From: Gammaproteobacteria bacterium
Lineage (GTDB): Bacteria > Pseudomonadota > Gammaproteobacteria > SZUA-140
Length of the DNA stretch: 53,444 nt
Direction of reading: 5' to 3'
Assembly (NCBI GenBank): GCA_016124415.1
Contig: WGNS01000052.1
Span: 1 to 53,444, forward strand
Position numbers and translations under genes: made by a program. The notes under the pieces were generated by a model. It was not told the origin of the DNA, ran no database searches, and saw only the letters and a program-made list of their open reading frames with translations. The first letter of the stretch is position 1. The number at the start of each line of letters is the position of its first letter. Shown here piece after piece: positions 11,282 to 28,673 of the stretch.

Positions 11282-11815
11282 ATGTCATCGAACAGCACTT
11301 CAGGCTGGCATCCCCTGCTGAAGTTTCCGCTCGCGTCCGCCACGGCCTTTTTTATCGGGACCGTGCACGGCGTCGTTCAGGTTCTGCCGCCCATCCGTCA
11401 CTGGCTCGACTCGATCGGCAGCCCTTACGGCGGCCCGGGACACATGATCGATCCGCTTGCCCATGCCCATATCAACGTCGTCGGTGGCGTGGTGCTGCTG
11501 TGCATGGCCGTGACCTATTATCTGTTTCCCGTCCTGTCGGGACGTCCGCTCTACTCCCAGCGCCTGGTCACCCATACCTTTTGGTGGACCACGATCGGGG
11601 TTTCCGGCTTCTATTCCACGCTGCTGATATTCGGCATCATCGAAGGGCACTATCTGTTGGCCGACGATCGCGCCGGCATGGCCGCCGTGCATCACTATTA
11701 CGGCCCGATCATATCCATCGTCTCCTCGATCATGGGCGTCGGCTTCTGGATATTCTTCACAAACGTCTTCATGACGGCCCGCATGCTGCTGAAGGCGCGC
11801 CGGGAAAATGCTTGA
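11282..11815 (+). CDS. Stand-alone 4-TM homologue of heme-copper oxidase subunit I C-terminal helices
   Basis: LAHAHINVVGG plus YYLFPVLSGRPLYSQRLVTHTFWW, matching CcoN VAHAHLALLGF...YYGLQTIMRRKLYSLALANFHFWF in this window. Confidence 0.75.
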   Translation: MSSNSTSGWHPLLKFPLASATAFFIGTVHGVVQVLPPIRHWLDSIGSPYGGPGHMIDPLAHAHINVVGGVVLLCMAVTYYLFPVLSGRPLYSQRLVTHTFWWTTIGVSGFYSTLLIFGIIEGHYLLADDRAGMAAVHHYYGPIISIVSSIMGVGFWIFFTNVFMTARMLLKARRENA

Positions 11816-12335
11816 TTGCGGCTGTCCTGAACACTACCCCGAGGACTGGCACGGCCGTGACGTCGACCTGTCCGGACATTGCATTCTACGTCTGAGCATC
11901 CCGACCCCGGTTCACATGCCGGTCGGCATCGAAGCCTATCTGCAACGTCAGCAAAGATCGGTCGAGGAACTCGAACTCAGCGAGGAATGGCCCAACCTGG
12001 TCCTGGTCCGCACCGGGATATGGAAAGGGGAAATCATCCGTCTGATTAAGGAAGAAGGTTCGCTATCCCGGCTGGTGGGCTATCTGCCTCGGCCGTTCCA
12101 GGTTCGGGCACACCTGCATCACGGTAACGTCAGCACACTACGCAACTCCCTGCGCCTGATACAGCAATCGCTGTTTGACGAAGGGAAGATGCCGAAGGAC
12201 CTCTACCTGAGCCACCTGACCTGCCCGCGCTGCCGCGACCGGCGCGGCGGAGACCTGATCCTGGTGCTACGCCAATGGCAGGAAAGCCCTACGCTGAAAG
12301 GGCGGCTGGCCAAACAGCAACTAAGGAAAAAATAA
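11808..12335 (+). CDS. Hypothetical soluble protein with CxCP and CPxC motifs
   Basis: MLDCGCP N-terminus, LTCPRC near C-terminus; overlaps upstream stop. Confidence 0.75.
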   Translation: MLDCGCPEHYPEDWHGRDVDLSGHCILRLSIPTPVHMPVGIEAYLQRQQRSVEELELSEEWPNLVLVRTGIWKGEIIRLIKEEGSLSRLVGYLPRPFQVRAHLHHGNVSTLRNSLRLIQQSLFDEGKMPKDLYLSHLTCPRCRDRRGGDLILVLRQWQESPTLKGRLAKQQLRKK

Positions 12336-12351
12336 CCGGGGCAAGGCCCGA

Positions 12352-12735
12352 TCAGGATGAGGACGGGATGGGGTAGACCAAGACCGTATTCGTCTTACCA
12401 CGGTGCAAACGCACGAAGACCTGAGTATCGCCGGGATTCATCTGCACGGCCCTCCTGAAGACCCCGCTGCCTCCATCCTGTATGCCCTGCCGCCAGGGCT
12501 CCTGATCGTCCATGCGTAGCGACACCACGATGTCCGCTACCGGTAAACCACGCGGGCCCGTCGCGATGACCAGCAATTCGTTCATGCCCGGACGCATGGG
12601 CGCCGGACGGCTCTCCAGTGAGATCTGCACGCCTTGCCATACCTGAGGCTTGAAGGCGGCCTTTACATCGCCCCCGCCACTACAAGCGCTCAACACAAGA
12701 GAAATCATCAGACAAAAAACGATACGCAATCTCAT
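12352..12735 (-). CDS. Lipoprotein, FixH/YtkA-like Ig domain (putative)
   Basis: Lipobox LSAC; beta-rich soluble domain; last gene of the cassette operon. Family is inferred. Confidence 0.6.
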   Translation of the reverse strand: MRLRIVFCLMISLVLSACSGGGDVKAAFKPQVWQGVQISLESRPAPMRPGMNELLVIATGPRGLPVADIVVSLRMDDQEPWRQGIQDGGSGVFRRAVQMNPGDTQVFVRLHRGKTNTVLVYPIPSSS

Positions 12736-13040
12736 GAGGCACCCAAAGCGTGACTGGTCAGATATTCGAGAATCTCTGCGCGCTGCTCAACGGTCAATGG
12801 CGCCTTGCCCTGTGTTGCCATGTGGGTCTGCATGCGCGCGACGACGCCGGGCCATTCGTCGGCGCCATGCGCTTTAGGATTCGGCGGCAGGTGACAACGG
12901 CCGCAGCCCTTACGGAAAGCGAGCGGTCCATCCGCAACGGCCGCAGGACCGCTGCTCTCGGTCCCCGAACAGCCGAGCAAGGGTACGAAAAACACCGCAA
13001 ACGCGGCCCACCGCAGGTGGGCGAACAACGGCCTAGTCAT
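12732..13040 (-). CDS. Monoheme cytochrome c lipoprotein
   Basis: Lipobox LLGC; CGRCH; distal Met candidates in ARMQTHM. Confidence 0.8.
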   Translation of the reverse strand: MTRPLFAHLRWAAFAVFFVPLLGCSGTESSGPAAVADGPLAFRKGCGRCHLPPNPKAHGADEWPGVVARMQTHMATQGKAPLTVEQRAEILEYLTSHALGAS

Positions 13041-13509
13041 CCGAGCGCCTGTCTCCCGTTTTGCCGTCTTCCCCGTTCTCGCCCTCGTCTTCCGATTGCT
13101 TTTCCTTGTCGCTATCCAGGCGGCCGGCGGCCTTGGAGCCGTATAGGTTGACCATGAAGTAGACGAAGGTCCCGGCCACGGCGATATAGACCAGCGCGGC
13201 CAAAAAGCCCCAGTTGACCCAGCTGCGCTCGTAACCCGGCCGGTCGCCCCAGAACGGAAAGCTCAGGCCCACGGCCACGAGGACGACAACGAAAACCACA
13301 GCTAAAAACCACTTGGGCACACCGCGTTGGGATTCCGGGATCTTGTCGACGAGTTCCCAGTCCTCCATCCCACGTTTGGCAAGACGTTCTTCCTCTGAGG
13401 CGTAGCCGAAGTGATCGTTCGGGGCCGCCCCCCATTCACCCTGTCGGGCGGGTTTGCTACCGACCCGATCGGCTCCGGACTCGGCGCCCTTTTTCTCGGT
13501 CTCAACCAT
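13033..13509 (-). CDS. Two-TM protein, paralogue of 21284..21916, CcoP-N-terminus-like
   Basis: DKIPESQRGVPKWF...FPFWGDRP resembles GGIMEDNNRLPQP...FPLWGQRP of the paralogue. Confidence 0.7.
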   Translation of the reverse strand: MVETEKKGAESGADRVGSKPARQGEWGAAPNDHFGYASEEERLAKRGMEDWELVDKIPESQRGVPKWFLAVVFVVVLVAVGLSFPFWGDRPGYERSWVNWGFLAALVYIAVAGTFVYFMVNLYGSKAAGRLDSDKEKQSEDEGENGEDGKTGDRRSDD

Positions 13510-13511
13510 AT

Positions 13512-14825
13512 TTACTCCCCTCCCAGGGCCAGGTGTTGTAGGCGATAAAACTGCTTCTGGCCGTCGTCGCTACGCACGGTGACGAGGACCGGATAGACCC
13601 CCTTCTTGAGATCATCGATATGGAGGTTGATATCCCGGCGTCCTGCATTCATGAAGGAGGCGCGGTCCTGAGTCAGCTTGAAATGCCCCTCGGGCAGCCC
13701 CTCGACCGTGACGGACATGGTCCTGGGGTGGTAAAGCTTGTTGGCGATGCTGATCCGATAATCACGGATGTCCCCACCCTGTAGCGTTTCGGCCCGATAG
13801 ACGGAGAAGTGGTAATCTTCATAGCTCCACAGCCCCCAGACGAACATGCCCAATCCTATCGCGGCCAACGCGGCGGCGCCGGGCGCACGAGACATGATCG
13901 AACCAACGTTGGTCATGTGCTTGCGCTCTTCCTTTGAGGCGCCATCACGGCCCAGGGCGAAGCGCAGCAGTCCACCGCCCGTCTTGCGGTTCTTGCGGAT
14001 CTGGCTGCAGGCAGTGATGCATTCGCCGCAGTTGATGCAGGCATCATAGGTCTCGGTGTTGCGCGGATCGACGCCGATAAAACACGAGGTGACGCAATAA
14101 TTGCAGCGGGCACACTCATCCGGGTGACTGGCGTCATGTTGAATGCGTAGCGTCTCACGGGTCTTGAACGCGTGCTGCCAGATCCGGTAGACGCACATGA
14201 AACGGCACCAGAAGTGGCGAATGAAGGCGATATTGACCCACAAAATCAGCACGAACATGCTGTAGATCCAATATAGAGAAGGCGCCAGACGCACATCGTC
14301 CCGGAAAGAAACGAAAGACCAAATCACGTCGGGCGGATAAAAATACAACAGGGGAATCAGGGCGCCGGCCATCGCCATGGCCAAAAAGGCGATGCTGAGG
14401 ACGAACCAATGTCCCGCCTTGTTCTTGCCCGCGGACAACCGGACCGGGCTGCCGTCCAGACTGACCTCGACCCGCTTACCGAGCCAGCGACGGGTCATCC
14501 GGTCCGCCCATTCGGACAGGCTGTTCTGTGGGCAGACCCACCCGCAGAAGGCCATGCCGACAAGGGAATAGGTCATCACCAGCAGGCACGATATCGCCAG
14601 CCACAGGCCCACAACGAGATTGAAATCGGAAAACCAGATCTGGCGATCGATGACGACGAACGCGCCCTCGACCGGGTCAATCCTGAACAAGCCGCTGACC
14701 GGGATCAATATGGCCAATATCAGTGTCCCGATCTGCACGGCGCGCCGCGCGCGATGGATGCGGCGTCCCGACTCGGCGGGCACGCTGACTACGGGGATGG
14801 ACTGCAATATTTCCTGTCCGCTCAT
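13512..14825 (-). CDS. CcoG/FixG-like membrane 4Fe-4S protein
   Basis: FCGWVCP, FWCRFMC, CARCNYCVTSC, CINCGECITAC; C-terminal Ig-like region with IANK. Confidence 0.85.
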   Translation of the reverse strand: MSGQEILQSIPVVSVPAESGRRIHRARRAVQIGTLILAILIPVSGLFRIDPVEGAFVVIDRQIWFSDFNLVVGLWLAISCLLVMTYSLVGMAFCGWVCPQNSLSEWADRMTRRWLGKRVEVSLDGSPVRLSAGKNKAGHWFVLSIAFLAMAMAGALIPLLYFYPPDVIWSFVSFRDDVRLAPSLYWIYSMFVLILWVNIAFIRHFWCRFMCVYRIWQHAFKTRETLRIQHDASHPDECARCNYCVTSCFIGVDPRNTETYDACINCGECITACSQIRKNRKTGGGLLRFALGRDGASKEERKHMTNVGSIMSRAPGAAALAAIGLGMFVWGLWSYEDYHFSVYRAETLQGGDIRDYRISIANKLYHPRTMSVTVEGLPEGHFKLTQDRASFMNAGRRDINLHIDDLKKGVYPVLVTVRSDDGQKQFYRLQHLALGGE

Positions 14826-17500
14826 TGAGTAAGCCTATCATGTGAGAGGGTCGTATTTACACCGCCACCCAGCTTCCCGGCCGTTGAACCCAGGGGGTCC
14901 ATTGCCCGGTAGCGCGCGAGCAGTCGGGCCGCCCGCTCGCTGAGTCCCTCGCTTTCAGCGATAGACGCCATGTCGCGTAACGACTCGGGGTGATCCGGGA
15001 ATACCTCGAGTATTTGAGCCAGCGCCGTCTTTCGGGCGATGCCATGGCGCACGGCCTCGGTCAGGGTACTGTACATCTGGTCGGCCAAGCCCCAGGCGAC
15101 CTCGTGATCGGCCGGATTGGCTTTATTTGCGAACCGGATTAACCGAATTGAGGCCTCATCATGTCCTTGCATCGCTTCCTCCGAACTCCGCATCGCAAGC
15201 GCGGTCGCCGCGTAGGCGCGTTCGAAGGCGTCTTTGTCCGCCGGGGAAACGCCCAGATCGCCCGATGCAAACGCGAGAGAGGGTCGTTGTCCTTCGAGCC
15301 AGAACATGACCTTGAGCAGATCGAGATCGCCCGAAAAACGCGCCCTGGGCAGACTGAATTCGATGCTCGGGCGCCATTCGTCCTGGACTCGGCCGGCGCC
15401 GACGTGTATCCGTCCCCAGTACCGGCCGAGCCAGGTCCAGCCGCCCTCGCCGCCCGTCGGCCCATCGGTCGCCGCGCCGGTATCCCGAATGACATGCTCG
15501 ATTCCGCCCCATTCGTTCTTGAATCCGGCCATACCCAAGCGGAAACCGTCCACGAACAGCATATTGCGGGGAAAGACCTGAGCGAAGGTGCGCAGGACGA
15601 CCTTCAGCGTATCCACGCTGAACTGGTTCATGGCGAGCCACTGGACGAAGACGCCATCGTCGTTGAGATGCGTCCGGGCGCGATTGAATTGCTGGACGGA
15701 AAGCAGTGCGCTCCGTCCGACGAGATCGGGATGGAAAAGATCACCGATAATGACATCGTATCGATTTGTGGTCGTGAGCAGGAAGCGCCGGGAATCATCG
15801 TGATGGACACGCATCCCGGAAACAACGCCGCCATTGACCGGTTCGAACCAAGCCTGTGCGGCATCGATCGCGCCCTGAGACAGCTCGACGGCCTCGCGTT
15901 CCAGGTTGGGATACGCCAATGAGCCCGATGCCGTGATGGCGGTACCCAAACCGAGGAATAAGACGCTGTGCGGGTCGCGGTGCAAAAGCAGGGGCAGGCG
16001 CGCCTGATTGCGTTGGACCATGACCGAACTGGGGTCGGTCGCGGCATCCATGCGTTGCAGATCGCTCAGCAGCACCCTGTTCCCGTCTCCGCGCCGGATG
16101 ACATGCGTCAGCGAGACCGCATCCTCAAAACGATAGAGATCCGTGCTGTCCTTGTTCAACTCCGGCAGCATCTCTGCGACGGAAGGATACTGACGTACCG
16201 GCCAGGCGATGAGCAACAGGGGGACGATGGCCGTCCACCAGCGCCAGCCGCTCGCGAAATTGATACTCAAGCTGAGTCCCAGTACCAGGACGAACAATGC
16301 CGCGATGATGATGGTCGCCGGAGTACCGACCATCGGCACCAGCAGAAACCCTCCCAGCAACGCGCCCAAAGCGGAACCCAACGCGTTTGCGCCATACAAG
16401 CCCGCGCCGCTGTGGCCGTCGCCGCCGAGACTGCGCGTGAGTATCGGCAACCAGGCGCCGAATGCCACCGTTACGGGCAACGTCAACAGGGCGAGTAAGA
16501 CGGCCTGGACAACCAGTGCGTCGCCCAGAGACGAAAACGAACTGCGCTCCACCCAAGCCGAAAGATGCGGCAAGGCCCAGAGTCCTAGGATCATGGCAAA
16601 CGCGGCGACCAGCGGAAACGCCCTTAGGCTCCCCGCAACCGGCAGTCGACGGGAAACGAGGCCGCCCAGTCCGATACCCGCCACGTAAACCGCGAGTATG
16701 ATGGCCATGACGTATTCGGTGCGCAGCATGGCGAGACCGAAAAGCCGCGTCCAGGCGACCTCTAGCAAAATCGCCGAACATCCTATCCCGCCGTATGCGA
16801 TCAGCACCGTGTTTGGGATCGGCAAACCCGTCCGTTCCGGGAGCACTACGCGCCCTCGATGGCTGGGATGGCGTGAGTGGAGCGCGGCCAGGATCGCAAT
16901 GATTACGCCGAGGGTTGCGATCATCTTGACCGCAAGCGCCCAACCGAAGACGGGGAGCAATATCAGCGGCATCAACGCGCCGATCGCCGCCCCGATGGCA
17001 TTGGCGCCGTAATAGTCGCCCAGACGTCCGGCGCCGTCCTCGGCGCTCTCGAGTATGGCCGGGAAGGCCGCGCCCATCGCCATGGCGGGCACGACCAGTA
17101 TCATCAGCAAGACTGACGCCTGTATGGAATACCATTGGGACAACGGTAATCCCGCGCCCCAACGCGCCAGCGCGTCTGCCCCCCAATCGGCAAGGGCCGG
17201 GAATCCGAACGCACACAACGCGACGCCGCCTTCCAACAGCGCAAACATCAACAGCGGGTTTGATACCCTACGCGCCACCCTGCGTCCCGCCAGGCTTCCC
17301 ATGCCCAATCCGAGCATGAATGCGGTTACGGTGATGACCACCCCGAAAATGCTGATACCGAACTGGGTGCCGACCATACGCACCCAAAGGACCTCATAAG
17401 CCAATCCGGTCAGGCCGGAGCCCGTGTAGAGCGCCAAAAGACGGCCGTTGACCGAGGGACGAGCTATCGAGGCTTCTGTGGTAATGACGGATGTGTTCAA
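14822..17500 (-). CDS. Multi-TM domain fused to spermidine-synthase-like SAM-dependent domain
   Basis: GLAYEVLWVR, YGANAIGAAIG / YGANALGSALG TM repeats; VLFLGLGT, VELS, YDVIIGDLFHP. Confidence 0.88.
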   Translation of the reverse strand: MNTSVITTEASIARPSVNGRLLALYTGSGLTGLAYEVLWVRMVGTQFGISIFGVVITVTAFMLGLGMGSLAGRRVARRVSNPLLMFALLEGGVALCAFGFPALADWGADALARWGAGLPLSQWYSIQASVLLMILVVPAMAMGAAFPAILESAEDGAGRLGDYYGANAIGAAIGALMPLILLPVFGWALAVKMIATLGVIIAILAALHSRHPSHRGRVVLPERTGLPIPNTVLIAYGGIGCSAILLEVAWTRLFGLAMLRTEYVMAIILAVYVAGIGLGGLVSRRLPVAGSLRAFPLVAAFAMILGLWALPHLSAWVERSSFSSLGDALVVQAVLLALLTLPVTVAFGAWLPILTRSLGGDGHSGAGLYGANALGSALGALLGGFLLVPMVGTPATIIIAALFVLVLGLSLSINFASGWRWWTAIVPLLLIAWPVRQYPSVAEMLPELNKDSTDLYRFEDAVSLTHVIRRGDGNRVLLSDLQRMDAATDPSSVMVQRNQARLPLLLHRDPHSVLFLGLGTAITASGSLAYPNLEREAVELSQGAIDAAQAWFEPVNGGVVSGMRVHHDDSRRFLLTTTNRYDVIIGDLFHPDLVGRSALLSVQQFNRARTHLNDDGVFVQWLAMNQFSVDTLKVVLRTFAQVFPRNMLFVDGFRLGMAGFKNEWGGIEHVIRDTGAATDGPTGGEGGWTWLGRYWGRIHVGAGRVQDEWRPSIEFSLPRARFSGDLDLLKVMFWLEGQRPSLAFASGDLGVSPADKDAFERAYAATALAMRSSEEAMQGHDEASIRLIRFANKANPADHEVAWGLADQMYSTLTEAVRHGIARKTALAQILEVFPDHPESLRDMASIAESEGLSERAARLLARYRAMDPLGSTAGKLGGGVNTTLSHDRLTQ

Positions 17501-17970: not shown

Positions 17971-18220
17971 GATGTTCTTCCGTCCTACGTTTCTTATTTG
18001 CAAAACGCCAGTAGAGGATCGCCATGAGAATGAACGGCGACAATACGGCGGGCAGCAGGAACAAAAAGATCCACCAGGGCGTGTCGATGGTGACGTGCAG
18101 ATAGCGGTAGCTGTCGATGGCAAGACAGCTGTCGCTGAATCCCGCCGTGGCGAGGAACAATACCAGCAGGACGGTTCGCCTTGCGCGTGATTGCATGGTT
18201 GAGATGAAACTGTCCCCCAC
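17960..18220 (-). CDS. Small membrane protein (signal-like segment plus one TM)
   Basis: GTG with GGGAG RBS; IDSYRYLHVTIDTPWWIFLFLL; coupled to next gene. Confidence 0.7.
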   Translation of the reverse strand: MGDSFISTMQSRARRTVLLVLFLATAGFSDSCLAIDSYRYLHVTIDTPWWIFLFLLPAVLSPFILMAILYWRFANKKRRTEEHHEG

Positions 18221-20574: not shown

Positions 20575-20615
20575 TTTGAAACCTCGTAAAGGTTGATGAT
20601 TCGACGAGGGGGCGC

Positions 20616-21933: not shown

Positions 21934-22884
21934 TTATTTAAGACTTAAGATGAAATCGATCAGCATGCGAGCATCGCTGTCCTGTGCGGGCACAGGAACA
22001 TCGGGCGGATAAACCCGCTCGCCGGCCGTATAGGCGTTGTAATCGGCACGCCACTTGTCGTAATCGATCCGGTTGCCCGACGCATCCTTCTCACCCCACA
22101 GATAATCGAAGCGGGGCATGATGGAGTGCGGCTGAACCAGGCGCGGATTGAAGAAGTGCATCATCATCCACTCTCTGGAAGAGTTGCGCGAACCAATGTG
22201 CAGCAGATCCGGGGCCTTACGGTCGGAACCGAAAGCAGTCGGAGTCTCACTGTTGAAGTCACCCAGAGCGGGCGGCGCACCAAAGACCTGCCAGTCCTGC
22301 GTCTCCTCAGGCAGCAGGGTATGACACCACCAGCAGCCTTCGCGGACGAACATGATCTTACCGGAGCCGATCTTCTGAATGTCGGAGTCCTTAACGGAGC
22401 TCAGAACAACGTCGGGTGTCCAGTTACGAGTGGCCGTAGCGTTTTCGATGTACGGATACTTCTTACCCTCGTAGCGGCCTTCCTGAACCAGGAAGACAGC
22501 ACCTTCAGCCTCGCGGGCCTCATTGATATGACCTTTCTCAAGGCTCAGGTCCTTGACGCCGACGCCGAGAATCCGGGGGTGCGGAATGGAACTCGTAAAC
22601 CGCACACCGGGTTCATAGACATAAGCGTAGGTCGGATCCATTGCAGCCCCCGTCCGCGGATCCTTCTTCAGGAGCACGGTCTTCGGCTTGCTCCAGCCGC
22701 GAAGGAACGGATCTTCCAGACTGAAACCACCCACTCGTCCGAACGACAGACTCTTTCTGACGCCGTATTCGGTGGAACCCACTTTGACGATGTCCAGGCT
22801 CGGCATGTACAGGGTGATCATCATCGACCCACCCAATGCGAGACCGAACATACGCGCTCCGATCTTATACTCTCTAAAAGCCAC
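21934..22884 (-). CDS. ccoO: cbb3-type cytochrome c oxidase subunit II with N-terminal extension
   Basis: FVREGCWWCHT, GSDRKAPDL, PHSIMPRFDYLW; GGAGGAG RBS before GTG. Confidence 0.9.
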   Translation of the reverse strand: MAFREYKIGARMFGLALGGSMMITLYMPSLDIVKVGSTEYGVRKSLSFGRVGGFSLEDPFLRGWSKPKTVLLKKDPRTGAAMDPTYAYVYEPGVRFTSSIPHPRILGVGVKDLSLEKGHINEAREAEGAVFLVQEGRYEGKKYPYIENATATRNWTPDVVLSSVKDSDIQKIGSGKIMFVREGCWWCHTLLPEETQDWQVFGAPPALGDFNSETPTAFGSDRKAPDLLHIGSRNSSREWMMMHFFNPRLVQPHSIMPRFDYLWGEKDASGNRIDYDKWRADYNAYTAGERVYPPDVPVPAQDSDARMLIDFILSLK

Positions 22885-22927: not shown

Positions 22928-24334
22928 TCAACGCTCGTATGCCAGTTCGTGCGGCAGACGGCCCTCAGGAATCAAGGTGCCTTCGCGTGCGGTCATCCAC
23001 ATGTTGTAGAGCCAGACGCAGTTTCCGGTGAACACCATCGTACCGCCAACCCAACGAGCGATCATGTACGGATGCTCGGCGATAACGGTGTCGATGTAAG
23101 GCACCTCGTAGATCTTGGCGGCACCCTGGATCAGACCGGCGATGGTCATGGAGATCCAGTAAGTACAGAAGCCAATCAGCAGGAACCAGAAGTGGAAGTT
23201 AGCCAGAGCCAGCGAGTACAGTTTGCGACGCATAATCGTCTGCAGACCGTAGTAGACGGCGGAGGCCTCAAGGAAGGTAGAGAACCCAAGCAGGGCCAGG
23301 TGAGCGTGAGCCACAATCCAGCCGGTGCCATGGATGTACCAGTTGATGGCGCGAGTCTGCTGGAAGCCGCCCTGCATGTTCAGGGGGATAGCCAGAAGCA
23401 CACCGGTCATCGTGAACTTGGTCTCAACGTTGTCGACGAAGTAATGCCACTTGCCGGTCATCGTCAGGATCAGGTTCGAAACGAAGGCGATCGCGGGCAC
23501 CAGAATCAGCACGCCTTCCACCGAAGCGAAGGACTTCAGCCATTCGGGCAGCGGAGAAGACATCAGGTGATGGGCCGCCGGCGTGGAGTAGAACACGACA
23601 ACCGACCAGAAGTGCAAGTGACCGATACGATGCGAGTACAGCGGGTTACCGGTGATCTTCGGAACCGTGTAGTACGCGATAGCAGCGGCAACCGGCGTAA
23701 TCCAGAGACCCAGCACGTTATGAGCGAACCACCAGGTCAGGTAGGCTTCGGTCAAACCGGTCAGCTGGAAGTACTCAGGCAGGTTACCGACGAACAGCAC
23801 GATCCAGACCATGAACACGGCGCCAGCAAAGAACCAGTTGGTCGTGTAGATACCCTGGGTACGACGCTTGATGACGGTCATCCAGACGTTCAGGCCAAGC
23901 GGAATACCGATGAAGGCAAGCACGTAGATGTCGATGAACCAAGGAAAGTCGGAGTACTCGCGGCCGGAGCTGATACCGGCCCACAGCAAGCACAGCGCCA
24001 ACGACAGGCCCACGTTCCAGAGGAAGCAGTTCCAGACACCGAGCTTTTCGGACCACAGCTTGGTGTTACCCAGGGCCGGCGTGATGTACATCATCGCCAT
24101 CGCGAAGGCCATGGAAATCCAACCGAAAATAACGGCCATGACGTGCACCTGACGCATATGACCGAAAGAGAAGAACTCCGAACCCGTGACAAAGTCGGGG
24201 AATGCCAGCTTGGCGGCATTAAAGGAACCCAGACCCGTTCCGATCACGAACCAGATGATAGAGGAGATGCCAAAGTATACCGCAGCGGTACCTCTTGGAA
24301 TGTCATCCCCTTTTGCAAATAAATACTTAAACAT
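22928..24334 (-). CDS. ccoN: cbb3-type (C-family) heme-copper oxygen reductase subunit I
   Basis: RQVHVMAVIFGW, WWFAHNVLGLW, FYSTPAAHHL, VAHAHLALLGF: all six His ligands plus the helix-VII Tyr. Confidence 0.95.
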   Translation of the reverse strand: MFKYLFAKGDDIPRGTAAVYFGISSIIWFVIGTGLGSFNAAKLAFPDFVTGSEFFSFGHMRQVHVMAVIFGWISMAFAMAMMYITPALGNTKLWSEKLGVWNCFLWNVGLSLALCLLWAGISSGREYSDFPWFIDIYVLAFIGIPLGLNVWMTVIKRRTQGIYTTNWFFAGAVFMVWIVLFVGNLPEYFQLTGLTEAYLTWWFAHNVLGLWITPVAAAIAYYTVPKITGNPLYSHRIGHLHFWSVVVFYSTPAAHHLMSSPLPEWLKSFASVEGVLILVPAIAFVSNLILTMTGKWHYFVDNVETKFTMTGVLLAIPLNMQGGFQQTRAINWYIHGTGWIVAHAHLALLGFSTFLEASAVYYGLQTIMRRKLYSLALANFHFWFLLIGFCTYWISMTIAGLIQGAAKIYEVPYIDTVIAEHPYMIARWVGGTMVFTGNCVWLYNMWMTAREGTLIPEGRLPHELAYER

Positions 24335-24540: not shown

Positions 24541-24819
24541 TCAGTGTCCTGCAGCGGCTTCGAGTTCGCCGTGACGACGCGCGGCGATCATGACGATGAA
24601 CATGAACGCAAAACCGAAGACGAGCATACACCAATCGACAAAGCCCTGAAAAGTTGACGGATCAAAGTTCTGACCATGCCAGCCGCCCCAATCCTCAAAT
24701 CGTCCTCTGCCCAGCGCACACATCAACGCAGCACCGAACACACTGCCATTACCCATACCGGTCGTGACGCCGGCAATCAGCGCTGTCCAGAATGTTTTCG
24801 AATAGGTCAGCTTATTCAT
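24541..24819 (-). CDS. 2-TM hypothetical membrane protein upstream of ccoN
   Basis: GGAGG RBS before ATG 24819; two hydrophobic segments. Confidence 0.75.
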   Translation of the reverse strand: MNKLTYSKTFWTALIAGVTTGMGNGSVFGAALMCALGRGRFEDWGGWHGQNFDPSTFQGFVDWCMLVFGFAFMFIVMIAARRHGELEAAAGH

Positions 24820-25138
24820 TGCACCCTCCAATTTGAATTTTCATGATCTCCCCCGCAGCCGACAACATTAGTTTTCATGTCTTTCTTGCCGACATTCATC
24901 CCCTGACGGTACGAGTCTAACCCTGCTTATAATGGGGTTTGTACATGTTTACATAGAGACTCAATAGCGTCAAGCCGAAATCCGTATTCCCGGCACACTT
25001 TTTTGGCAACCTCGCGGAGCCAGTCTCCACGCCGGATTCCGGCGGTTTCCGCACTGAAACAATTCATCTTTTTTTGGTCAATCGGCGCGCAATAGGCTAC
25101 GCTAAATAACGACGGTTGCAACCCAAAGGAATCCCTAA

Positions 25139-25352: not shown

Positions 25353-25808
25353 CTACTTGTAGATCCTTAAACGCGACAGCAAGTCCTGATACGCCCCGTC
25401 GTCGGAAAACTGACCGCGATGGAACACGAACTGGCGTTTTTGGCCGTCACCCTCCAACCCGCTTAAACCAAAAGACTTTCCTGCGTAGTCCGAAAAGAAG
25501 CGGACGTCCTTGATCAGGGAACAGGTGTCGCCGTTGCGCATTTTGAGTGCAACGCTGTCTCTGCCTAGAGAGAGGCCGACCGGCGCCTTCGGCAATAGCA
25601 TCAAACGGGTCACGAGAATGCGGTTGGCGCCCGTGATGAAAAAGAACGACGCCATAAAGAAGAGGAGATAGGCCCAGGTATGGTCGGCGCTGTACCAAAG
25701 ATAGGCGCCGTACATGGCCAGCGCGATTACCGTCGGCACATACAGCAGCAGATCCCAGACCAGGCCCCGACGGTCCTGGATCAAATCGAAGTTTCTGGAT
25801 TCCGCCAT
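25353..25808 (-). CDS. Hypothetical membrane protein (2 TM plus soluble domain)
   Basis: Co-oriented, 2 nt from the upstream stop. Confidence 0.75.
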   Translation of the reverse strand: MAESRNFDLIQDRRGLVWDLLLYVPTVIALAMYGAYLWYSADHTWAYLLFFMASFFFITGANRILVTRLMLLPKAPVGLSLGRDSVALKMRNGDTCSLIKDVRFFSDYAGKSFGLSGLEGDGQKRQFVFHRGQFSDDGAYQDLLSRLRIYK

Positions 25809-25810: not shown

Positions 25811-26323
25811 TCAGGAATTCCCGGATTCCGGTGCCGTCACGCGCTTCAACTGCGCATCCAACTCGCCGTACAGCATGCGACCGGGCTGCTTGAATTCAAC
25901 GACGCGATTCGCGTCGATGACATAAGTCCAAGGATCCCCGATGACACCAAAGGCGATGAACGCCTCTGGATTCTGATATTGATCCATGTGCAGGAACAAA
26001 ACCTTATCCTCATACTTGGCAAGCAGTCCCTTGATCATCTGCAACTGCTTATCGCACACCGTGCAGTGACCCGGGGTCGCAAATTCGAGCACGATGGGCT
26101 TCTTCATCGCCAGCGCCTCATCGAGTGAGTAGCGGTACATCCTCTTGTCGGGGTACCGGTACGTCGTGATCCGGCTGAAATCCCCGTCCACGTCAGCCAA
26201 GGTCTTTGTCTTGATGACGGGCGACTGCTCACCAACACTCACCGAGCCGTCACTCATACAAGCGGCCAAAGACATCGTCGTTACGATCAAAACAAAGACA
26301 AGGCGGACAGCAATCATAATCAT
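25811..26323 (-). CDS. Thioredoxin-fold lipoprotein
   Basis: Lipobox LAAC; VLEFATPGHCTVC (CxxC); GDPWTYVID. Confidence 0.8.
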   Translation of the reverse strand: MIMIAVRLVFVLIVTTMSLAACMSDGSVSVGEQSPVIKTKTLADVDGDFSRITTYRYPDKRMYRYSLDEALAMKKPIVLEFATPGHCTVCDKQLQMIKGLLAKYEDKVLFLHMDQYQNPEAFIAFGVIGDPWTYVIDANRVVEFKQPGRMLYGELDAQLKRVTAPESGNS

Positions 26324-26838
26324 TCCTCCTTATGCCAGAGCATACAGGTACGGAAGATATTATAACCCCAGATACAATTGGCCAGCAGGACCAGCGAACC
26401 AAAGATGCCGACCGACGCCATATACGGATGGATCAGCTTTTCGACCTGTTCGGGCGGCATGTTCATACTTGCGATTCCGCTCATGACGCCCGACAGCGTA
26501 AACAGGATGACCATGCCTACCAAGCCGATATTGTGGGTCCAAAAATGCACCTTCACCAGCCGCATACTATATATAGGGAGCTTAACCAAGCGTGGAATCA
26601 GATAGTAGACGGCGCCGAAAATGGCCATTTCCACCCAGCCCAGCAGATTGACGTGTGTATGGGCGCGAACGATCAGATTGCCGTGGAGACGCTGATCGAC
26701 GAAGTGACGCAGTTCCGCAACGCCGCCCATGACGGCACCCCACGAGAAACCGATAATGGCGTAAACAATACAGGCATAGATGAACAGGAGGGTATAACGC
26801 GTATACTCCCGATCAGTTTCCCAGGGCTTATTGTCCAC
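26320..26838 (-). CDS. Second stand-alone 4-TM homologue of oxidase subunit I
   Basis: RAHTHVNLLGW; VYYLIPRLVKLPIYSMRLVKVHFW; start reset to GTG 26838 (GGAG RBS). Confidence 0.8.
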   Translation of the reverse strand: MDNKPWETDREYTRYTLLFIYACIVYAIIGFSWGAVMGGVAELRHFVDQRLHGNLIVRAHTHVNLLGWVEMAIFGAVYYLIPRLVKLPIYSMRLVKVHFWTHNIGLVGMVILFTLSGVMSGIASMNMPPEQVEKLIHPYMASVGIFGSLVLLANCIWGYNIFRTCMLWHKEE

Positions 26839-27424
26839 TATTGTCTCCACTTGACTGTTGATTCTGCGGGTCGTCCTCGCGAACGTCATGGAATTTGTCT
26901 TTCCACTCTTTGGGCGCGAAGGTGCCGACCATGCTGTCGATGAATTCGGAACGTCCGGACGGCGGCTCCGGAGCGGAAGAAGAACCGCGATCAGCCTTCA
27001 ACTCGGAAATGAAGGTGGCAAGCGCATCGATATCCGCACTCGGAAGCGACGCCACGTAAGCCGCTTCCTTCGGCGCGTAACCATGATCCACGGTCTTGGC
27101 CTCGTAAGTCGCCTCGGGATCCCTCAGGAATCTCAACAACCAATCCCTGCTGCGCTTGGATCCGACACCGTCCAACGACAGACCCATATTGGTACCGTTT
27201 CGGAGGGCCCGGTGACAGGAAGTGCAATGCTGCTTGCGGAAGATTTCCGAACCGCGCTGCCCTTGCTCGGTCAGATCGAAATGCGTTTTGACGCCGAACA
27301 TGGGCTTATCCATGTTGCGCCGGACGCCTTCCATAACGCTGTAGCCTATGATGGCGGCGATGCCAAAGATGATGGCAATACCGAAAAGGACTTTTTCGCC
27401 TTGTTTTAAAGACTGTTTCGCCAC
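26828..27424 (-). CDS. Membrane-anchored monoheme cytochrome c, CcoO-like fold
   Basis: N-terminal TM; GSEIFRKQHCTSCH; LDGVGSKRSRDWL; start reset to GTG 27424. Confidence 0.88.
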   Translation of the reverse strand: MAKQSLKQGEKVLFGIAIIFGIAAIIGYSVMEGVRRNMDKPMFGVKTHFDLTEQGQRGSEIFRKQHCTSCHRALRNGTNMGLSLDGVGSKRSRDWLLRFLRDPEATYEAKTVDHGYAPKEAAYVASLPSADIDALATFISELKADRGSSSAPEPPSGRSEFIDSMVGTFAPKEWKDKFHDVREDDPQNQQSSGDNSGQ

Positions 27425-27564
27425 GGTGATACCTAAAGATGCCGTCCAAAACACTTACCGGACTTAAGACGCCGGGACCGTCTGCAAGGGAGGCCTGCAT
27501 AACCGCCGTCGTCTGGAATGCAAATGGGGAAGGACGACTCAGGTACGCCCCTCCCCATCTGTTT

Positions 27565-27595
27565 TTCTGAAGGCCCGACATCCGGGCCTTCAGAA
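27565..27595. other. 13-bp perfect hairpin downstream of the c4 gene
   Basis: ttctgaaggcccg-acatc-cgggccttcagaa; no U-tract on the coding strand, so possibly a stability element rather than a terminator. Confidence 0.55.
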
Positions 27596-27619
27596 CATAT
27601 GGACTATACGTCCTGCGGA

Positions 27620-28411
27620 TTAGTCACCGACAGTTGTCGAACCCGTATCGAAGGTCATGAAGCCATGACGCTCCGGCGTACGCGAGTTGCCGATCGTGAG
27701 CGGCGACGCATGGGACAGGAAGGTCGCGATATCGCGAATTTCCGAATCCGTCAGGCTCTTGGCAACTTTCTGCATCTGAGCCATCGGGTCGTTGGCACGG
27801 GAGCCATCACGCCAGTGGTTCAGCTGATTGATGAGGTAAACGAACTTCTGGCCGCCGATCATAGGATAGATCGGGTCAACGCCGCGGCCGTTATAGTCGT
27901 GGCAGGAGCGGCAGGCGGGAACGCCACGCTCGGGAATGCCGTAATTGACGATGGCCTTGCCCTGGTATCCGACGCCGAGCTCCGTACCACCGGCCTTCAG
28001 GTCGGCCAGATTGGAAAGATCGGAAGCGCCGGGCAAAGTGCCGTGAGGACCGAGCGTGCTTGCATAGGCGGCGACATCACGGCGATCCTGGGGAGACAGA
28101 CCCTTTGCGTTCGTATTCATAACGAACATGGTCGTGTCCTGACGACGGTCGTTGGCAAAATCCTCGAGCGGCTTGACGATGAACTGCGAAATCTGGCCGG
28201 CCAGACGCGGCGTACCCATCGCATCGTTGCCCATACCGCCCTCGCCATGACAGGAGTTACAGGCCGGCACATCGCCCTTGCCCTGCGTGAAAATGGCCTT
28301 ACCGTTGCTGATACTGGCGGATGCATGACCCTCGGCGGCCTGCGCCTGAGGTCCAGCCACCCAAACTGCCGCACCGATCACCACTGATGCCAGCGTACTA
28401 AAACGTCGCAT
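27620..28411 (-). CDS. Periplasmic diheme cytochrome c4-type protein
   Basis: Signal peptide from ATG 28411 (GAGGGG RBS); CNSCH and CRSCH; PRLAGQ / PMIGGQ; FVMN and AQMQ distal Met. Confidence 0.92.
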   Translation of the reverse strand: MRRFSTLASVVIGAAVWVAGPQAQAAEGHASASISNGKAIFTQGKGDVPACNSCHGEGGMGNDAMGTPRLAGQISQFIVKPLEDFANDRRQDTTMFVMNTNAKGLSPQDRRDVAAYASTLGPHGTLPGASDLSNLADLKAGGTELGVGYQGKAIVNYGIPERGVPACRSCHDYNGRGVDPIYPMIGGQKFVYLINQLNHWRDGSRANDPMAQMQKVAKSLTDSEIRDIATFLSHASPLTIGNSRTPERHGFMTFDTGSTTVGD

Positions 28412-28583
28412 ATGAAGCCCCCTCTCGTTTTTTATCATTTCCGTAACCCTCGACCCGCGATGCTGCTCTCTCAGCCAGGTCAACGAGACCCCGCAACGCC
28501 GATATCGGCGCAACACGATCTCCGAGATGATTACAATATTAAACAGAATGTCCGAGTAGCATCCTTCGGAAAATCCGCAAGGA

Positions 28584-28673
28584 TTAGGATGCCTTCTTCA
28601 AGATAAACATCGCCAGTCCAAAGGACAAAATAAACCAAAGAACGTAGAGCAGAACCACATCTCCTGTACCCAT
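28584..28673 (-). CDS. 29-aa single-TM peptide upstream of the c4 gene
   Basis: Not in ORF track. GAGGGG RBS; MGTGDVVLLYVLWFILSFGLAMFILKKAS. Confidence 0.55.
   Translation of the reverse strand: MGTGDVVLLYVLWFILSFGLAMFILKKAS

What the first reader, a model, noticed from the sequence alone, without database searches (positions are those of the whole stretch)
11282..28673. Atypical cbb3 oxidase super-cluster with duplicated, split modules (main candidate system)
Seen: a catalytically complete CcoN and a CcoO, but no heme-bearing CcoP, no recognisable CcoQ and no CcoI. Around them are about 23 linked genes: 2 heme-less CcoP-N-like proteins, 2 four-helix subunit-I homologues, 2 extra CcoO-like cytochromes, a diheme c4, a lipoprotein cytochrome, CcoG-like, CcoS, thioredoxin lipoprotein, spermidine-synthase-like fusion, FGE-domain protein and many small TM proteins. 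Six CxxCH sites in five genes. Known: canonical clusters are ccoNOQP-ccoGHIS. My recollection, unverified, is that a cassette of similar content was noted in neutrophilic iron oxidisers (Zetaproteobacteria, Gallionellaceae) without functional work. Inference: a distinct high-affinity O2-reducing supercomplex fed by c4 from an outer or periplasmic donor, with its own assembly pathway.
Basis: partly seen in the sequence, partly recalled or inferred. Interest (0 to 1): 0.82.

Follow-up and report, generated by a model that had tools for sequence, protein, structure and literature searches.

The report
Iron-oxidiser-type divergent cbb3 oxidase cassette
This is a real, strongly conserved ~16-kb gene cassette for an unusual CcoN/CcoO-only cbb3-type oxygen reductase, found in iron- and electrode-oxidising bacteria; its synteny has already been noted in the literature, but most of its roughly 25 genes have never been tested.

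Summary
On the minus strand, 12.3-28.7 kb encodes a catalytically complete CcoN, a long CcoO and six CxxCH sites in five genes. There is no heme-bearing CcoP, no CcoH and no CcoI in the cluster.

- **CcoN placement:** it is 27-30% identical to canonical CcoN and scores 224 bits against a 583-bit NCBIfam cut-off. It sits in a 100/100-supported clade with CcoNs from Mariprofundus, Gallionella, Sideroxydans, Ferrovum and Tenderia.
- **Synteny:** about 25 genes keep their order in 80 loci and in M. ferrooxydans, while the flanking genes do not.
- **Genome context:** this is the only heme-copper oxidase found in an 80%-complete autotroph genome. That genome also carries a Cyc2-like cytochrome-porin and a DmsE/MtoA-family decaheme cytochrome.

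The cassette is not new. Emerson 2013 (a 20-gene suite) and Eddie 2017 described the synteny, and other papers cite Field 2015 and Barco 2015 for it. "Distal cbb3" is an established term.

New here:
- four further conserved small ORFs;
- structural support that the 4-TM proteins match the last third of CcoN and keep both heme-ligating histidines;
- an FGE-like protein that lacks the catalytic cysteines.

Functions of the accessory genes remain inferred.

The parts
28584..28697 (-). 37-aa single-TM ORF upstream of the c4 gene (tentative)
   Evidence: tblastn hits in 20 of 95 loci, mean 52% identity
27620..28516 (-). Periplasmic diheme cytochrome c4 (Cyc1-type); probable start at 28411
   Evidence: Two CxxCH sites. 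Best PDB hit is the A. ferrooxidans c4 cytochrome c-552, 1H1O, E 1.7e-23; also Pseudomonas c4. Conserved in 50-52 loci.
26828..27454 (-). Membrane-anchored monoheme CcoO-like cytochrome c, paralog 1; the Met-ligand position is replaced and a conserved DH lies nearby
   Evidence: CxxCH at residue 77. Shares the LDGxGS and PE motifs with CcoO but lacks the ~25-residue CcoN-contact segment. Found in 65 loci.
26320..26889 (-). Stand-alone 4-TM homologue of CcoN helices 9-12 ('mini-CcoN' b); probable start about 26838
   Evidence: Pfam COX1 positions 310-432, E 5.7e-18. AF2 model pLDDT 82.7; Foldseek to cbb3 CcoN gives TMq 0.78-0.81 and rmsd 1.7-1.8 A. The HxH motif plus R, D and HG are invariant. 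The family has 767 clusters of about 170 aa.
25811..26323 (-). Thioredoxin-fold lipoprotein with a CTVC motif (TlpA/MauD-like)
   Evidence: Pfam Thioredoxin and NCBIfam MauD weak hits. 50 loci, 65% identity.
25353..25808 (-). 2-TM protein with a C-terminal soluble domain; no family
   Evidence: 50 loci, 53% identity
25139..25345 (+). 68-aa 2-TM protein on the opposite strand, with a conserved His
   Evidence: Conserved in 44-50 loci, always inverted relative to its neighbours
24541..24831 (-). About 92-aa 2-TM protein with a TGMGNGSVFGA motif; first gene of the core operon
   Evidence: 78 of 80 loci, 60% identity
24390..24479 (-). 29-aa single-TM peptide immediately upstream of ccoN (candidate small subunit)
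   Evidence: tblastn hits in 75 loci. Called as a 35-aa gene in M. ferrooxydans.
22928..24334 (-). CcoN, the catalytic subunit of a divergent C-family heme-copper oxidase
   Evidence: All ligands and the helix-7 Tyr are conserved. TIGR00780 score is 224 bits against a cut-off of 583. Sits in a 100/100 clade with iron-oxidiser sequences.
21934..22884 (-). CcoO with a ~140-residue beta-rich insertion between the TM anchor and the heme domain
   Evidence: CWWCH and the Met ligand are present. The insertion is modelled at pLDDT 84-96 with no significant PDB match. Found in 80 of 80 loci.
21284..21916 (-). Heme-less CcoP-N-terminal-like 2-TM protein with a ~105-residue periplasmic insert
   Evidence: No CxxCH. 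Weak FixP_N hit; conserved ExN..P...FPLWGQRP motif. Found in 76-79 loci.
21136..21264 (-). 42-aa single-TM peptide that closes the core operon
   Evidence: 73 loci. Called as a 44-aa gene in M. ferrooxydans.
21067..21093 (-). Strong intrinsic-terminator-like hairpin after the 42-aa ORF
   Evidence: 12-bp stem with 8 GC pairs, followed by a T-run
20616..20930 (-). 104-aa 2-TM protein; no family
   Evidence: 69-71 loci
20278..20577 (-). CcoS/FixS-like maturation protein
   Evidence: WAHKNEQFDEDIKY motif. FixS is hit by 10 of 10 family members, best E 1e-4.
19803..20285 (-). Membrane-anchored monoheme CcoO-like cytochrome c, paralog 2 (Met ligand retained)
   Evidence: CxxCH at residue 60; RMPSY aligns with the CcoO SIMP segment. 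69-74 loci.
19327..19863 (-). 3-4-TM protein; no family
   Evidence: 64-65 loci
18251..19330 (-). TM-anchored periplasmic FGE-sulfatase-fold protein without the catalytic Cys pair
   Evidence: PF03781, E 8e-57. The sequence reads GGSWKSDPFSTSTYHRNF where FGE has C...C. 63-64 loci.
17960..18220 (-). 86-aa signal-peptide plus TM protein
   Evidence: 65 loci. Called as a 75-aa gene in M. ferrooxydans.
17551..18123 (-). About 130-aa membrane protein with a conserved His-x13-His on one helix (real start probably near 17943)
   Evidence: 59 loci. Both His are at least 90% conserved in 60 sequences.
14822..17500 (-). 11-12-TM / spermidine-synthase-like / TPR fusion
   Evidence: NF037959, 72.9 bits against a cut-off of 40. 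54-56 loci; 46% identical to the M. ferrooxydans orthologue.
13512..14825 (-). CcoG-like membrane ferredoxin (candidate cupric reductase)
   Evidence: TIGR02745, 104 bits against a cut-off of 317. Has both CxxCxxCxxxC motifs, Fer4_5 and the FixG_C Ig domain.
13033..13509 (-). Short heme-less CcoP-N-like 2-TM protein; always adjacent to the CcoG-like gene
   Evidence: FPFWGDRPG motif. It stays next to the CcoG-like gene in the rearranged loci L055, L068, L073 and L077.
12732..13040 (-). Lipoprotein monoheme cytochrome c (lineage-restricted)
   Evidence: Lipobox plus CxxCH. Only 9-13 loci.
12352..12735 (-). Lipoprotein, 127 aa (lineage-restricted); terminator-like hairpin at 12333-12354
   Evidence: 8-13 loci; hairpin
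11282..11815 (+). Second stand-alone 4-TM CcoN-C-terminal homologue ('mini-CcoN' a), convergent with the cassette
   Evidence: COX1, E 1.2e-10. 27% identical to the other copy, with HxH, R, D and G kept. In all 10 other genomes tested, a second 4-TM COX1-like frame (25-33% identical to the first) lies on the same contig as that genome's cassette-type ccoN or first 4-TM copy (9 of 10) or on a separate short contig (1 of 10).

Best explanation
The region is the divergent ('distal'-type) CcoN/CcoO-only cbb3 oxidase cassette. It is shared, probably through horizontal spread, by neutrophilic and acidophilic iron oxidisers and by cathode-oxidising Tenderia-like Gammaproteobacteria.

**Shown**
- CcoN has the full heme b / heme b3-CuB ligand set and the C-family helix-7 tyrosine. 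CcoO has its heme c site.
- About 25 genes are co-inherited in fixed order as three or four transcription units.
- This is the only heme-copper oxidase found in a genome that also has RuBisCO, cytochrome bd, a Cyc2-like cytochrome-porin and a DmsE/MtoA-family decaheme cytochrome.

**Inferred mechanism**
1. Electrons taken from extracellular Fe(II) or a solid donor by Cyc2/Mto reach the periplasmic diheme c4.
2. They pass to one or both membrane-anchored CcoO-like monoheme cytochromes, which replace the missing heme domains of CcoP.
3. They then go to CcoO heme c, heme b, and the b3-CuB centre, where O2 is reduced and proton-motive force is made.

**Inferred roles of other parts**
- The heme-less CcoP-N-like hairpin encoded after ccoO keeps CcoP's membrane contact with CcoN, including a conserved Glu.
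- The 29-aa and 42-aa peptides and the 92-aa protein are small subunits.
- The CcoG-like reductase (with its own short CcoP-like partner), the CcoS-like protein and the thioredoxin lipoprotein mature the Cu and heme centres.
- The two 4-TM CcoN-third proteins keep both heme-ligating histidines and probably bind heme b. They act either as extra subunits or as a small b/c module together with the adjacent CcoO-like cytochrome.
- The roles of the FGE-like protein and the spermidine-synthase fusion are unknown.
For: - **Catalytic residues:** conserved in CcoN and CcoO.
- **Bimodal scores among 41 relatives:** canonical CcoN scores 556-801 bits and this type 216-234 bits. In the window's own family, 19 of 25 genomes have this type and only one also has a canonical copy.
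- **Identity:** 27-30% to canonical CcoN.
- **Isolation of the clade:** it collapses into a single 50%-identity cluster, and the next relatives are at 57% and 40%.
- **Tree:** the cassette clade has 100/100 support, a stem of 1.3 and crown branches below 0.15 across Zeta-, Beta- and Gammaproteobacteria. Canonical CcoNs form a separate 100/100 clade.
- **Synteny:** the order is kept in 80 loci while the flanks are not conserved. Twenty-two genes are orthologous and collinear in M. ferrooxydans.
- **4-TM paralogs:** both were found in all 10 genomes whose loci seemed to lack them.
- **Sole HCO:** only three PF00115 hits in the genome, all in this window. No CcoP above cut-off and no FixH.
- **Lifestyle genes:** cytochrome bd and RuBisCO are present, as are a Cyc2-like protein and a DmsE-family decaheme cytochrome at 259 bits against a cut-off of 192.
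- **c4 homology:** best PDB hit is A. ferrooxidans 1H1O.
- **Literature:** a 20-gene suite shared by ES-1 and PV-1 (PMC3770913). The cyc1 homologue is associated with the cbb3 cluster in ES-1, and distal cbb3 is about 3-fold more expressed than proximal (PMC8788666). A non-canonical 'complex IV-2' in Tenderia is among the most highly expressed genes (which locus this is was not checked), and Cyc1 lies in a region syntenic with PV-1 (PMC5371394). Only CcoNO were found in the PV-1 proteome (PMC5520029, citing Barco 2015). Co-localised cytochromes were proposed to replace subunit III in Ferrovum (PMC4725956).
Against: - There is no direct evidence here that the products assemble together.
- Similarity of the CcoP-N-like and CcoS-like proteins to their Pfam models is below the gathering thresholds.
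- Several positions that I recall (unverified) as lining the proton pathway in P. stutzeri differ: S240 is G, Y317 is A and E323 is Q (read from the alignment). Pumping and O2 affinity may therefore differ from canonical cbb3.
- Within the window's family, the Cyc2-like gene and the cassette do not co-vary: 8 genomes have both, 11 the cassette only, 4 Cyc2-like only and 2 neither.
- In ES-1 the distal ccoNO genes were up-regulated on thiosulfate rather than Fe(II) (PMC8788666). The link may be to lithotrophy at low O2 in general, not to iron specifically.
- The genome is only 80% complete, so a canonical ccoNOQP could have been missed.
Confidence: 0.75

Rival explanations
1. There are two machines, not one. 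The core operon (92-aa protein, 29-aa peptide, CcoN, CcoO, heme-less CcoP-like, 42-aa peptide) is the oxidase. The upstream unit (c4, CcoO-like cytochrome, 4-TM mini-CcoN, thioredoxin, 2-TM protein, 68-aa protein) is a separate small heme b/c membrane complex with its own job, such as passing electrons toward the uphill branch or sensing O2/NO.
For: - The upstream unit is a separate transcription unit. It ends against the inverted 68-aa gene, and in many loci it is moved, inverted or about 15 kb away while staying internally intact.
- Gene order mirrors ccoO-ccoN at one-third size.
- The mini-CcoN keeps both heme histidines and nearby R and HG residues.
- Its cytochrome partner lacks the CcoO segment that contacts CcoN and seems to have swapped the Met ligand.
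Against: - It co-occurs with the core in every genome examined (10 of 10; M. ferrooxydans). That fits a shared function equally well.
- No heme binding has been shown, and there is no CuB site and no quinone-site evidence.
Confidence: 0.25
2. The CcoN-third proteins and the heme-less CcoP-like hairpins are assembly scaffolds or chaperones. They would transiently mimic parts of the enzyme while heme b/b3 and CuB are inserted, and would not be stable subunits.
For: - The short CcoP-like protein always travels with the CcoG-like copper factor.
- The cassette is rich in maturation-type genes: CcoG-like, CcoS-like and thioredoxin.
- CcoH and CcoI, which do related jobs in canonical systems, are missing from the cluster.
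Against: - The long CcoP-like gene sits exactly where ccoP sits, inside the structural operon and before its terminator.
- The 4-TM gene overlaps a cytochrome gene, which is typical of stoichiometric partners.
Confidence: 0.2
3. The enzyme is not an O2 reductase but an NO reductase, or another activity of a divergent heme-copper family member.
For: Very low identity to canonical CcoN (27-30%), and several differences at positions I recall (unverified) as lining the proton channel.
Against: - All three CuB histidines and the C-family cross-link tyrosine are invariant.
- It is the only heme-copper oxidase in an aerobic lithoautotroph-type genome.
- The literature treats it as the terminal oxidase, and it is highly expressed during aerobic growth (PMC8788666, PMC5371394).
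Confidence: 0.03

Closest known systems
Canonical cbb3-type cytochrome c oxidase, ccoNOQP-ccoGHIS (P. stutzeri 3MK7/5DJQ; R. capsulatus 6XKW)
   Same: - C-family CcoN with an identical ligand set and the helix-7 Tyr.
- CcoO monoheme subunit with a TM anchor.
- CcoG-like and CcoS-like genes nearby.
- A c4-type cytochrome as the likely donor.
   Different: - 27-30% identity, and scores far below the NCBIfam equivalog cut-offs.
- No diheme CcoP, only heme-less N-terminal-like hairpins.
- CcoO carries a ~140-residue insertion.
- No CcoH, and no CcoI in the cluster.
- No FNR-type box within one mismatch near the promoters.
- About 15 extra conserved genes.
'Distal' cbb3 subtree of Ducluzeau et al. 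2008, as applied to Zetaproteobacteria, Gallionellaceae and Sideroxydans ES-1 (PMC7029218, PMC10734462, PMC8788666)
   Same: A CcoNO-only enzyme, phylogenetically separate from the proximal ccoNOQP enzymes, present in the same taxa.
   Different: I could not place Ducluzeau's own reference sequences in my tree. The equation with 'distal' therefore rests on taxa, subunit composition and the published descriptions.
The 20-gene 'suite of potentially redox-active genes' shared by Sideroxydans ES-1 and Mariprofundus PV-1 (Emerson 2013, PMC3770913); also the 'conserved cassette' that PMC7029218 credits to Field 2015, and the PV-1/Tenderia syntenic region that PMC5371394 credits to Barco 2015
   Same: The content fits: 22 of the window's genes are collinear with M. 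ferrooxydans at 42-78% identity. The same order is found in a Sideroxydans MAG (L044) and Tenderia MAGs (L023, L033).
   Different: - I could not match locus tags, because Emerson's gene numbers are only in a figure. Identity with the published 20-gene suite is therefore inferred from taxa and content.
- This copy is in an uncultured gammaproteobacterial MAG.
- M. ferrooxydans has a multicopper oxidase and two more cytochromes inserted, and no c4 gene within 10 kb.
- In the papers I could read, the genes are treated mostly as hypotheticals.
Formylglycine-generating enzyme / SUMF1-EgtB-PvdO superfamily (PF03781)
   Same: Full-length FGE-sulfatase fold, E 8e-57.
   Different: Both catalytic (copper-binding) cysteines are absent, so it is not a formylglycine-generating enzyme. 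It is membrane-anchored and periplasmic, inside a respiratory operon.

Membership tests
cbb3-type (C-family) heme-copper oxidase | 12-TM subunit I with His ligands for low-spin heme b, high-spin heme b3 and CuB | tested here: met
   H64, H345 (heme b); H343 (heme b3); H205, H255, H256 (CuB). All align with 3MK7 residues H60, H347, H345, H207, H257 and H258.
cbb3-type (C-family) heme-copper oxidase | Active-site tyrosine on helix 7 (the C-family position) | tested here: met
   Y249 aligns with Y251 of 3MK7 and is invariant in 12 sequences.
cbb3-type (C-family) heme-copper oxidase | CcoO: TM-anchored monoheme c subunit with CxxCH and a Met ligand | tested here: met
   CWWCH at residues 184-188 and SIMPRF align with CcoO of 9G83 and 3MK7.
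Canonical ccoNOQP enzyme (NCBIfam equivalogs TIGR00780/00781/00782) | Scores above the curated cut-offs | tested here: not met
   ccoN scores 224 against 583 and ccoO 60 against 200. The best ccoP hit anywhere in the genome is 56 against 180.
Canonical ccoNOQP enzyme | Diheme CcoP subunit | tested here: not met
   The gene in the ccoP position has no CxxCH. There is no genome hit above cut-off.
Canonical ccoNOQP enzyme | CcoQ small subunit | tested here: inconclusive
   No annotated CcoQ. Conserved 29-aa and 42-aa single-TM peptides flank the core genes. Homology to CcoQ was not testable at this length.
ccoGHIS maturation set | CcoG, CcoH, CcoI and CcoS all present | tested here: not met
   CcoG-like scores below cut-off (104 against 317) but has both Fe-S motifs. 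CcoS-like gives weak but consistent hits, 10 of 10. There is no FixH in the genome. No P1B ATPase lies in the cluster; one CPC-type is on contig C42.
'Distal' cbb3 clade / iron-oxidiser cassette | CcoN separate from canonical CcoN and grouping with the Mariprofundus, Gallionella, Sideroxydans, Ferrovum and Tenderia enzymes | tested here: met
   100/100 clade; 78% identity to M. ferrooxydans.
'Distal' cbb3 clade / iron-oxidiser cassette | Conserved gene order of the accessory genes | tested here: met
'Distal' cbb3 clade (Ducluzeau 2008) | Placement with the original reference sequences of that paper | not testable with these tools
   The paper and its sequences are not held. The assignment rests on later papers that use the term for the same taxa.
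Formylglycine-generating enzyme | Pair of catalytic cysteines in the C-terminal motif (recalled, not checked against a reference sequence) | tested here: not met
   The sequence reads GGSWKSDPFSTSTYHRNF with no Cys. The fold is present.
Fused MFS/spermidine synthase (NF037959) | Score above the curated cut-off; TM domain plus aminopropyltransferase-like domain | tested here: met
   72.9 bits against a cut-off of 40. Catalytic competence was not tested.
Cytochrome c4 / Cyc1-type diheme cytochrome | Two class-I heme c domains, each with CxxCH | tested here: met
   CxxCH at residues 86 and 202. PDB c4 hits at E 1e-19 to 1e-23, with A. ferrooxidans 1H1O the best.
Cyc2 fused cytochrome-porin (elsewhere in the genome, C34) | Signal peptide, single N-terminal CxxCH with the PxL motif (recalled, unverified), ~400-500-aa beta-barrel | tested here: inconclusive
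   The own copy is cut by the contig end. Homologues in relatives have open frames of about 300-520 aa, mostly 400-520, and one read in full (429 aa) ends in ...AAF. No library model exists and the barrel was not modelled.

The most novel reading that the evidence does not exclude
The stand-alone 4-TM proteins are a new class of heme-b membrane protein, derived from the last third of heme-copper oxidase subunit I. They keep the two helix-10 histidines but have no CuB site. Together with a trimmed, possibly bis-His CcoO-like cytochrome and small TM partners, they would form a miniature b/c electron-transfer or gas-binding module. The divergent cbb3 oxidase of lithotrophic iron and electrode oxidisers would need this module, so the enzyme would have a subunit architecture unlike any solved cbb3 (split CcoP, extra small subunits, mini-CcoN).
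Probability: 0.3. Interest if true: 0.75.

Novelty: new member of a known kind. Interest (0 to 1): 0.5.

Why it matters
This oxidase is the final step of the Cyc2 to Cyc1 to cbb3 model for microaerophilic iron oxidation and cathodic electron uptake.
- It is the only heme-copper oxidase found in this genome and in most genomes of its family.
- In the ES-1 and Tenderia transcriptome studies cited here, a non-canonical cbb3 was more highly expressed than the canonical enzyme.
- Its composition has not been determined experimentally.

The part-by-part map makes concrete experiments possible:
- which proteins replace CcoP;
- whether the CcoN-third proteins bind heme;
- what the cysteine-less FGE-like protein and the membrane spermidine-synthase fusion do.

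The very tight CcoN clade across three proteobacterial classes also marks the cassette as a horizontally shared trait and a possible marker for this lifestyle.

Tried and rejected
- **Key papers not held:** Field 2015 and Barco 2015 could not be read. Their content is taken second-hand from papers that cite them.
- **CcoO insertion domain:** the Foldseek search gave only weak OB-like hits (E at least 0.1), so there is no assignment.
- **Long CcoP-like protein:** a PDB sequence search found nothing.
- **FNR/Anr box (TTGATnnnnATCAA, up to 1 mismatch):** none near the cassette.
- **Composition:** GC3 of the cassette genes (0.53-0.81) barely differs from the flanks (0.69-0.83). There is no compositional sign of recent transfer into this genome. 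The case for horizontal spread rests on the tree.
- **Cyc2-like against cassette presence within the family:** no association. The test is weak because Cyc2 diverges fast.
- **40-aa TM ORF at 11083-11205:** it has its own promoter-like and terminator-like sites but is not conserved in any of 95 loci. I rejected it as part of the system.
- **ORFs rejected as unconserved overprints (ORF):** 24927-25121(-), 20934-21080(-), 22688-24322(+) and 17573-18190(+).
- **Hydrolase at 11808-12335:** not conserved.
- **Nearest non-clade CcoNs (57% and 40% identity):** their contigs were too short to show context, beyond a 317-aa CcoO-sized neighbour.

Full report
**What is there**

- **CcoN (22928-24334, 468 aa).** It aligns end to end with P. 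stutzeri CcoN (3MK7, E 4e-62). It keeps H64 and H345 (heme b), H343 (heme b3), H205, H255 and H256 (CuB), the helix-7 tyrosine Y249, and E126, which aligns with E122 of 3MK7.
- **CcoO (21934-22884, 316 aa).** It has an N-terminal TM helix, CWWCH at residue 184 and the SIMPRF methionine. About 140 residues are inserted between the anchor and the heme domain. AlphaFold models this insert confidently (pLDDT 84-96) as a beta-rich domain with no significant PDB match.
- **Heme count.** Six CxxCH sites in five genes is exact.

**It is not a canonical cbb3**

- CcoN scores 224 bits against TIGR00780 (cut-off 583). CcoO scores 60 against 200, and the CcoG-like protein 104 against 317.
- Among 41 related genomes the scores are bimodal: 556-801 bits for canonical ccoN and 216-234 bits for this type. 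In the window's own family, 19 of 25 genomes have this type and only one also has a canonical copy.
- Canonical CcoNs of the same class are 27-30% identical to the window's protein.
- In a library clustered at 50% identity the whole group collapses into one representative (88% identical). The next relatives are at 57% and 40%, then 37% or less.
- In a maximum-likelihood tree the cassette-type CcoNs form a 100/100 clade. It includes Mariprofundus, another zetaproteobacterium, Gallionella, Sideroxydans, Ferrovum, Burkholderiales, Tenderia and Chromatiales MAGs. The stem is long (1.3) and the crown branches are below 0.15. The nine canonical CcoNs form a separate 100/100 clade.
- The crown spans three proteobacterial classes yet is shallower than the canonical CcoN diversity within one class. 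This points to horizontal spread, very strong constraint, or both.
- GC3 gives no sign of recent arrival in this genome.

**The accessory genes are syntenic**

A pattern scan of 185,579 species genomes found 390 that encode a relative, and the best 80 (83-96% identical) were fetched. tblastn and blastp of every window ORF against them give one dominant order:

c4 / CcoO-like cytochrome / 4-TM mini-CcoN / thioredoxin lipoprotein / 2-TM / inverted 68-aa gene / 92-aa 2-TM / CcoN / CcoO / heme-less CcoP-like / 2-TM / CcoS-like / CcoO-like cytochrome / TM protein / FGE-like / ~130-aa His-x13-His protein / MFS-spermidine-synthase-TPR / CcoG-like / short CcoP-like.

- Two lipoproteins, one of them a monoheme cytochrome, follow this order in some lineages only.
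- The window's flanking genes (RsmE, an aminotransferase, phosphatidylserine decarboxylase, a GGDEF-EAL protein) and the hydrolase at 11808-12335 are not conserved there. These set the boundaries.
- The M. ferrooxydans locus carries 22 of the genes in the same order at 42-78% identity.
- The first six genes form a movable block. It is inverted, transposed or beyond the 10-kb flank in many betaproteobacterial loci. Even so, all 10 such genomes I checked have the 4-TM gene, in seven of them 11-15 kb from ccoN on the same contig. All 10 also have a second, more divergent 4-TM frame. The window's 11282-11815 gene is therefore a genuine, conserved second copy.

**Additions to the map**

- Four small ORFs are conserved: 29 aa directly upstream of ccoN (75 loci), 42 aa after the CcoP-like gene (73 loci), 86 aa after the FGE-like gene (65 loci) and 37 aa upstream of c4 (20 loci). 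Three of them are called genes in M. ferrooxydans.
- A strong terminator-like hairpin follows the 42-aa ORF, and another follows the last lipoprotein gene.
- With the inverted 68-aa gene, this suggests three minus-strand transcription units: about 28.7-25.35 kb, 24.83-21.07 kb and 20.93-12.33 kb.

**Component-level tests**

- **4-TM protein.** It models at pLDDT 82.7 and superposes on cbb3 CcoN with TMq 0.78-0.81 and rmsd 1.7-1.8 A. It is a free-standing copy of helices 9-12. Both paralogs keep the HxH that ligates heme b3 and heme b in CcoN, plus an Arg, an Asp and a Gly in the preceding loop.
- **CcoP-like proteins.** Both share the ...P..W...FP.WG.RP... hairpin motif. FixP_N is hit by 11 of 30 family members, below the Pfam threshold. 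The short copy stays next to the CcoG-like gene even in rearranged loci.
- **Extra cytochromes.** Both align with the CcoO heme domain but lack the ~25-residue segment that canonical CcoO has between the heme motif and the PDL..VG motif. One keeps the Met ligand. The other has a conserved Asp-His nearby instead.
- **FGE-fold protein.** It lacks both catalytic cysteines.
- **CcoG-like protein.** It has both CxxCxxCxxxC motifs.
- **Diheme protein.** It is a c4. Its best solved relative is the A. ferrooxidans c4 cytochrome c-552, 1H1O. A Pseudomonas c4 sequence is also listed under the bc1-cbb3 supercomplex entries 8SMR/8SNH.

**Genome context**

- The 2.19-Mb, 80%-complete genome has only three COX1-family hits, all in this window.
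- It has no CcoP above cut-off and no FixH.
- It has one cytochrome bd and RuBisCO.
- It has a DmsE/MtoA-family decaheme cytochrome above cut-off.
- It has 11-, 21- and 36-heme cytochromes.
- It has a Cyc2-like cytochrome gene cut by a contig end. Homologues in relatives have open frames of about 300-520 aa, mostly 400-520, and one read in full (429 aa) ends in a porin-like ...AAF.
- This is the gene set of a microaerophilic lithoautotroph that takes electrons from outside the cell.

**What is already known**

- Emerson et al. 2013 (PMC3770913) described a suite of 20 genes shared in conserved order by Sideroxydans ES-1 and Mariprofundus PV-1. Fourteen have their next-best matches in Leptospirillum, and the function is unknown.
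- McAllister et al. 2020 (PMC7029218) cite Field et al. 2015 for a 'conserved cassette' including cyc1. They also split zetaproteobacterial cbb3 into proximal and distal types.
- Zhou et al. 2022 (PMC8788666) report that the cyc1 homologue is associated with the cbb3 cluster in ES-1. Distal ccoNO has about 3-fold higher expression than proximal and is up-regulated on thiosulfate.
- Eddie et al. 2017 (PMC5371394) show synteny between Tenderia and PV-1, crediting Barco 2015. A non-canonical 'complex IV-2' is among the most highly expressed gene sets, while the canonical ccoNOPQ is low. I did not check which locus 'complex IV-2' is.
- Ullrich et al. 2016 (PMC4725956) proposed that co-localised cytochromes replace subunit III in Ferrovum.
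None of the papers I could read dissects the accessory genes.

**Verdict**

- The feature is real, conserved and functionally coherent. It is the iron-oxidiser ('distal') cbb3 cassette in a new gammaproteobacterial MAG, which makes it a new member of a known kind.
- The electron path (Cyc2/Mto to c4 to CcoO-like cytochromes to CcoO to CcoN) and the maturation roles are inferred from homology and synteny.
- Still open: whether all products form one complex, whether the mini-CcoN proteins bind heme, and what the FGE-like and spermidine-synthase-like proteins do.

Noticed in passing
L093:7219-9394 (M. ferrooxydans locus): In Mariprofundus, a three-domain multicopper oxidase (353 aa) and two extra c-type cytochromes (246 and 125 aa) are inserted between the movable upstream block and the core ccoN operon. 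No orthologue of the window's c4 lies within 10 kb.
   Followed up: partly
genome contigs C54:968-4636, C70:10893-12548, C97:10943-13687, C8:6902-8887 (outside the window): There are very large multiheme cytochromes with 36, 21, 11 and 9 CxxCH sites. A DmsE/MtoA-family decaheme cytochrome lies at C45:15676-16659. Together these suggest extensive extracellular electron-transfer capacity.
   Followed up: partly
genome contig C34:12129-12971 (outside the window): A Cyc2-like cytochrome gene (CSSCH followed by FPALNAFGRAF) runs into the end of its contig and is truncated or garbled there. Relatives have full-length copies with open frames mostly of 400-520 aa.
   Followed up: partly
window 11024-11255: A self-contained promoter-like site, a 40-aa TM ORF (11083-11205) and a strong terminator-like hairpin sit at the cassette edge. 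The peptide has no tblastn match in any of 95 related loci, so it is not part of the conserved system.
   Followed up: yes
L090 (G007:C7:5262-6611): A family relative has a second cassette-type-scoring CcoN-like region (234 bits) inside a 1024-aa open frame, possibly a fused CcoN. My ORF/blastp pass did not recover it.
   Followed up: no
window 24832-25138: This 307-bp divergent intergenic region lies between the 68-aa plus-strand gene and the core operon. It has no FNR/Anr-type box within one mismatch, whereas canonical cco promoters usually have one (recalled, not checked here).
   Followed up: partly
window 17551-17943: The ~130-aa membrane protein has two histidines, at least 90% conserved, exactly 14 residues apart on one predicted helix. 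This is the spacing seen in diheme cytochrome b helices (recalled). No family was assigned.
   Followed up: partly
window 2805-4253: CbiM/CbiQ cobalt (ECF-type) transporter genes and an OprB-family porin (6305-7546) lie upstream. They are ordinary neighbours and are not conserved with the cassette.
   Followed up: no
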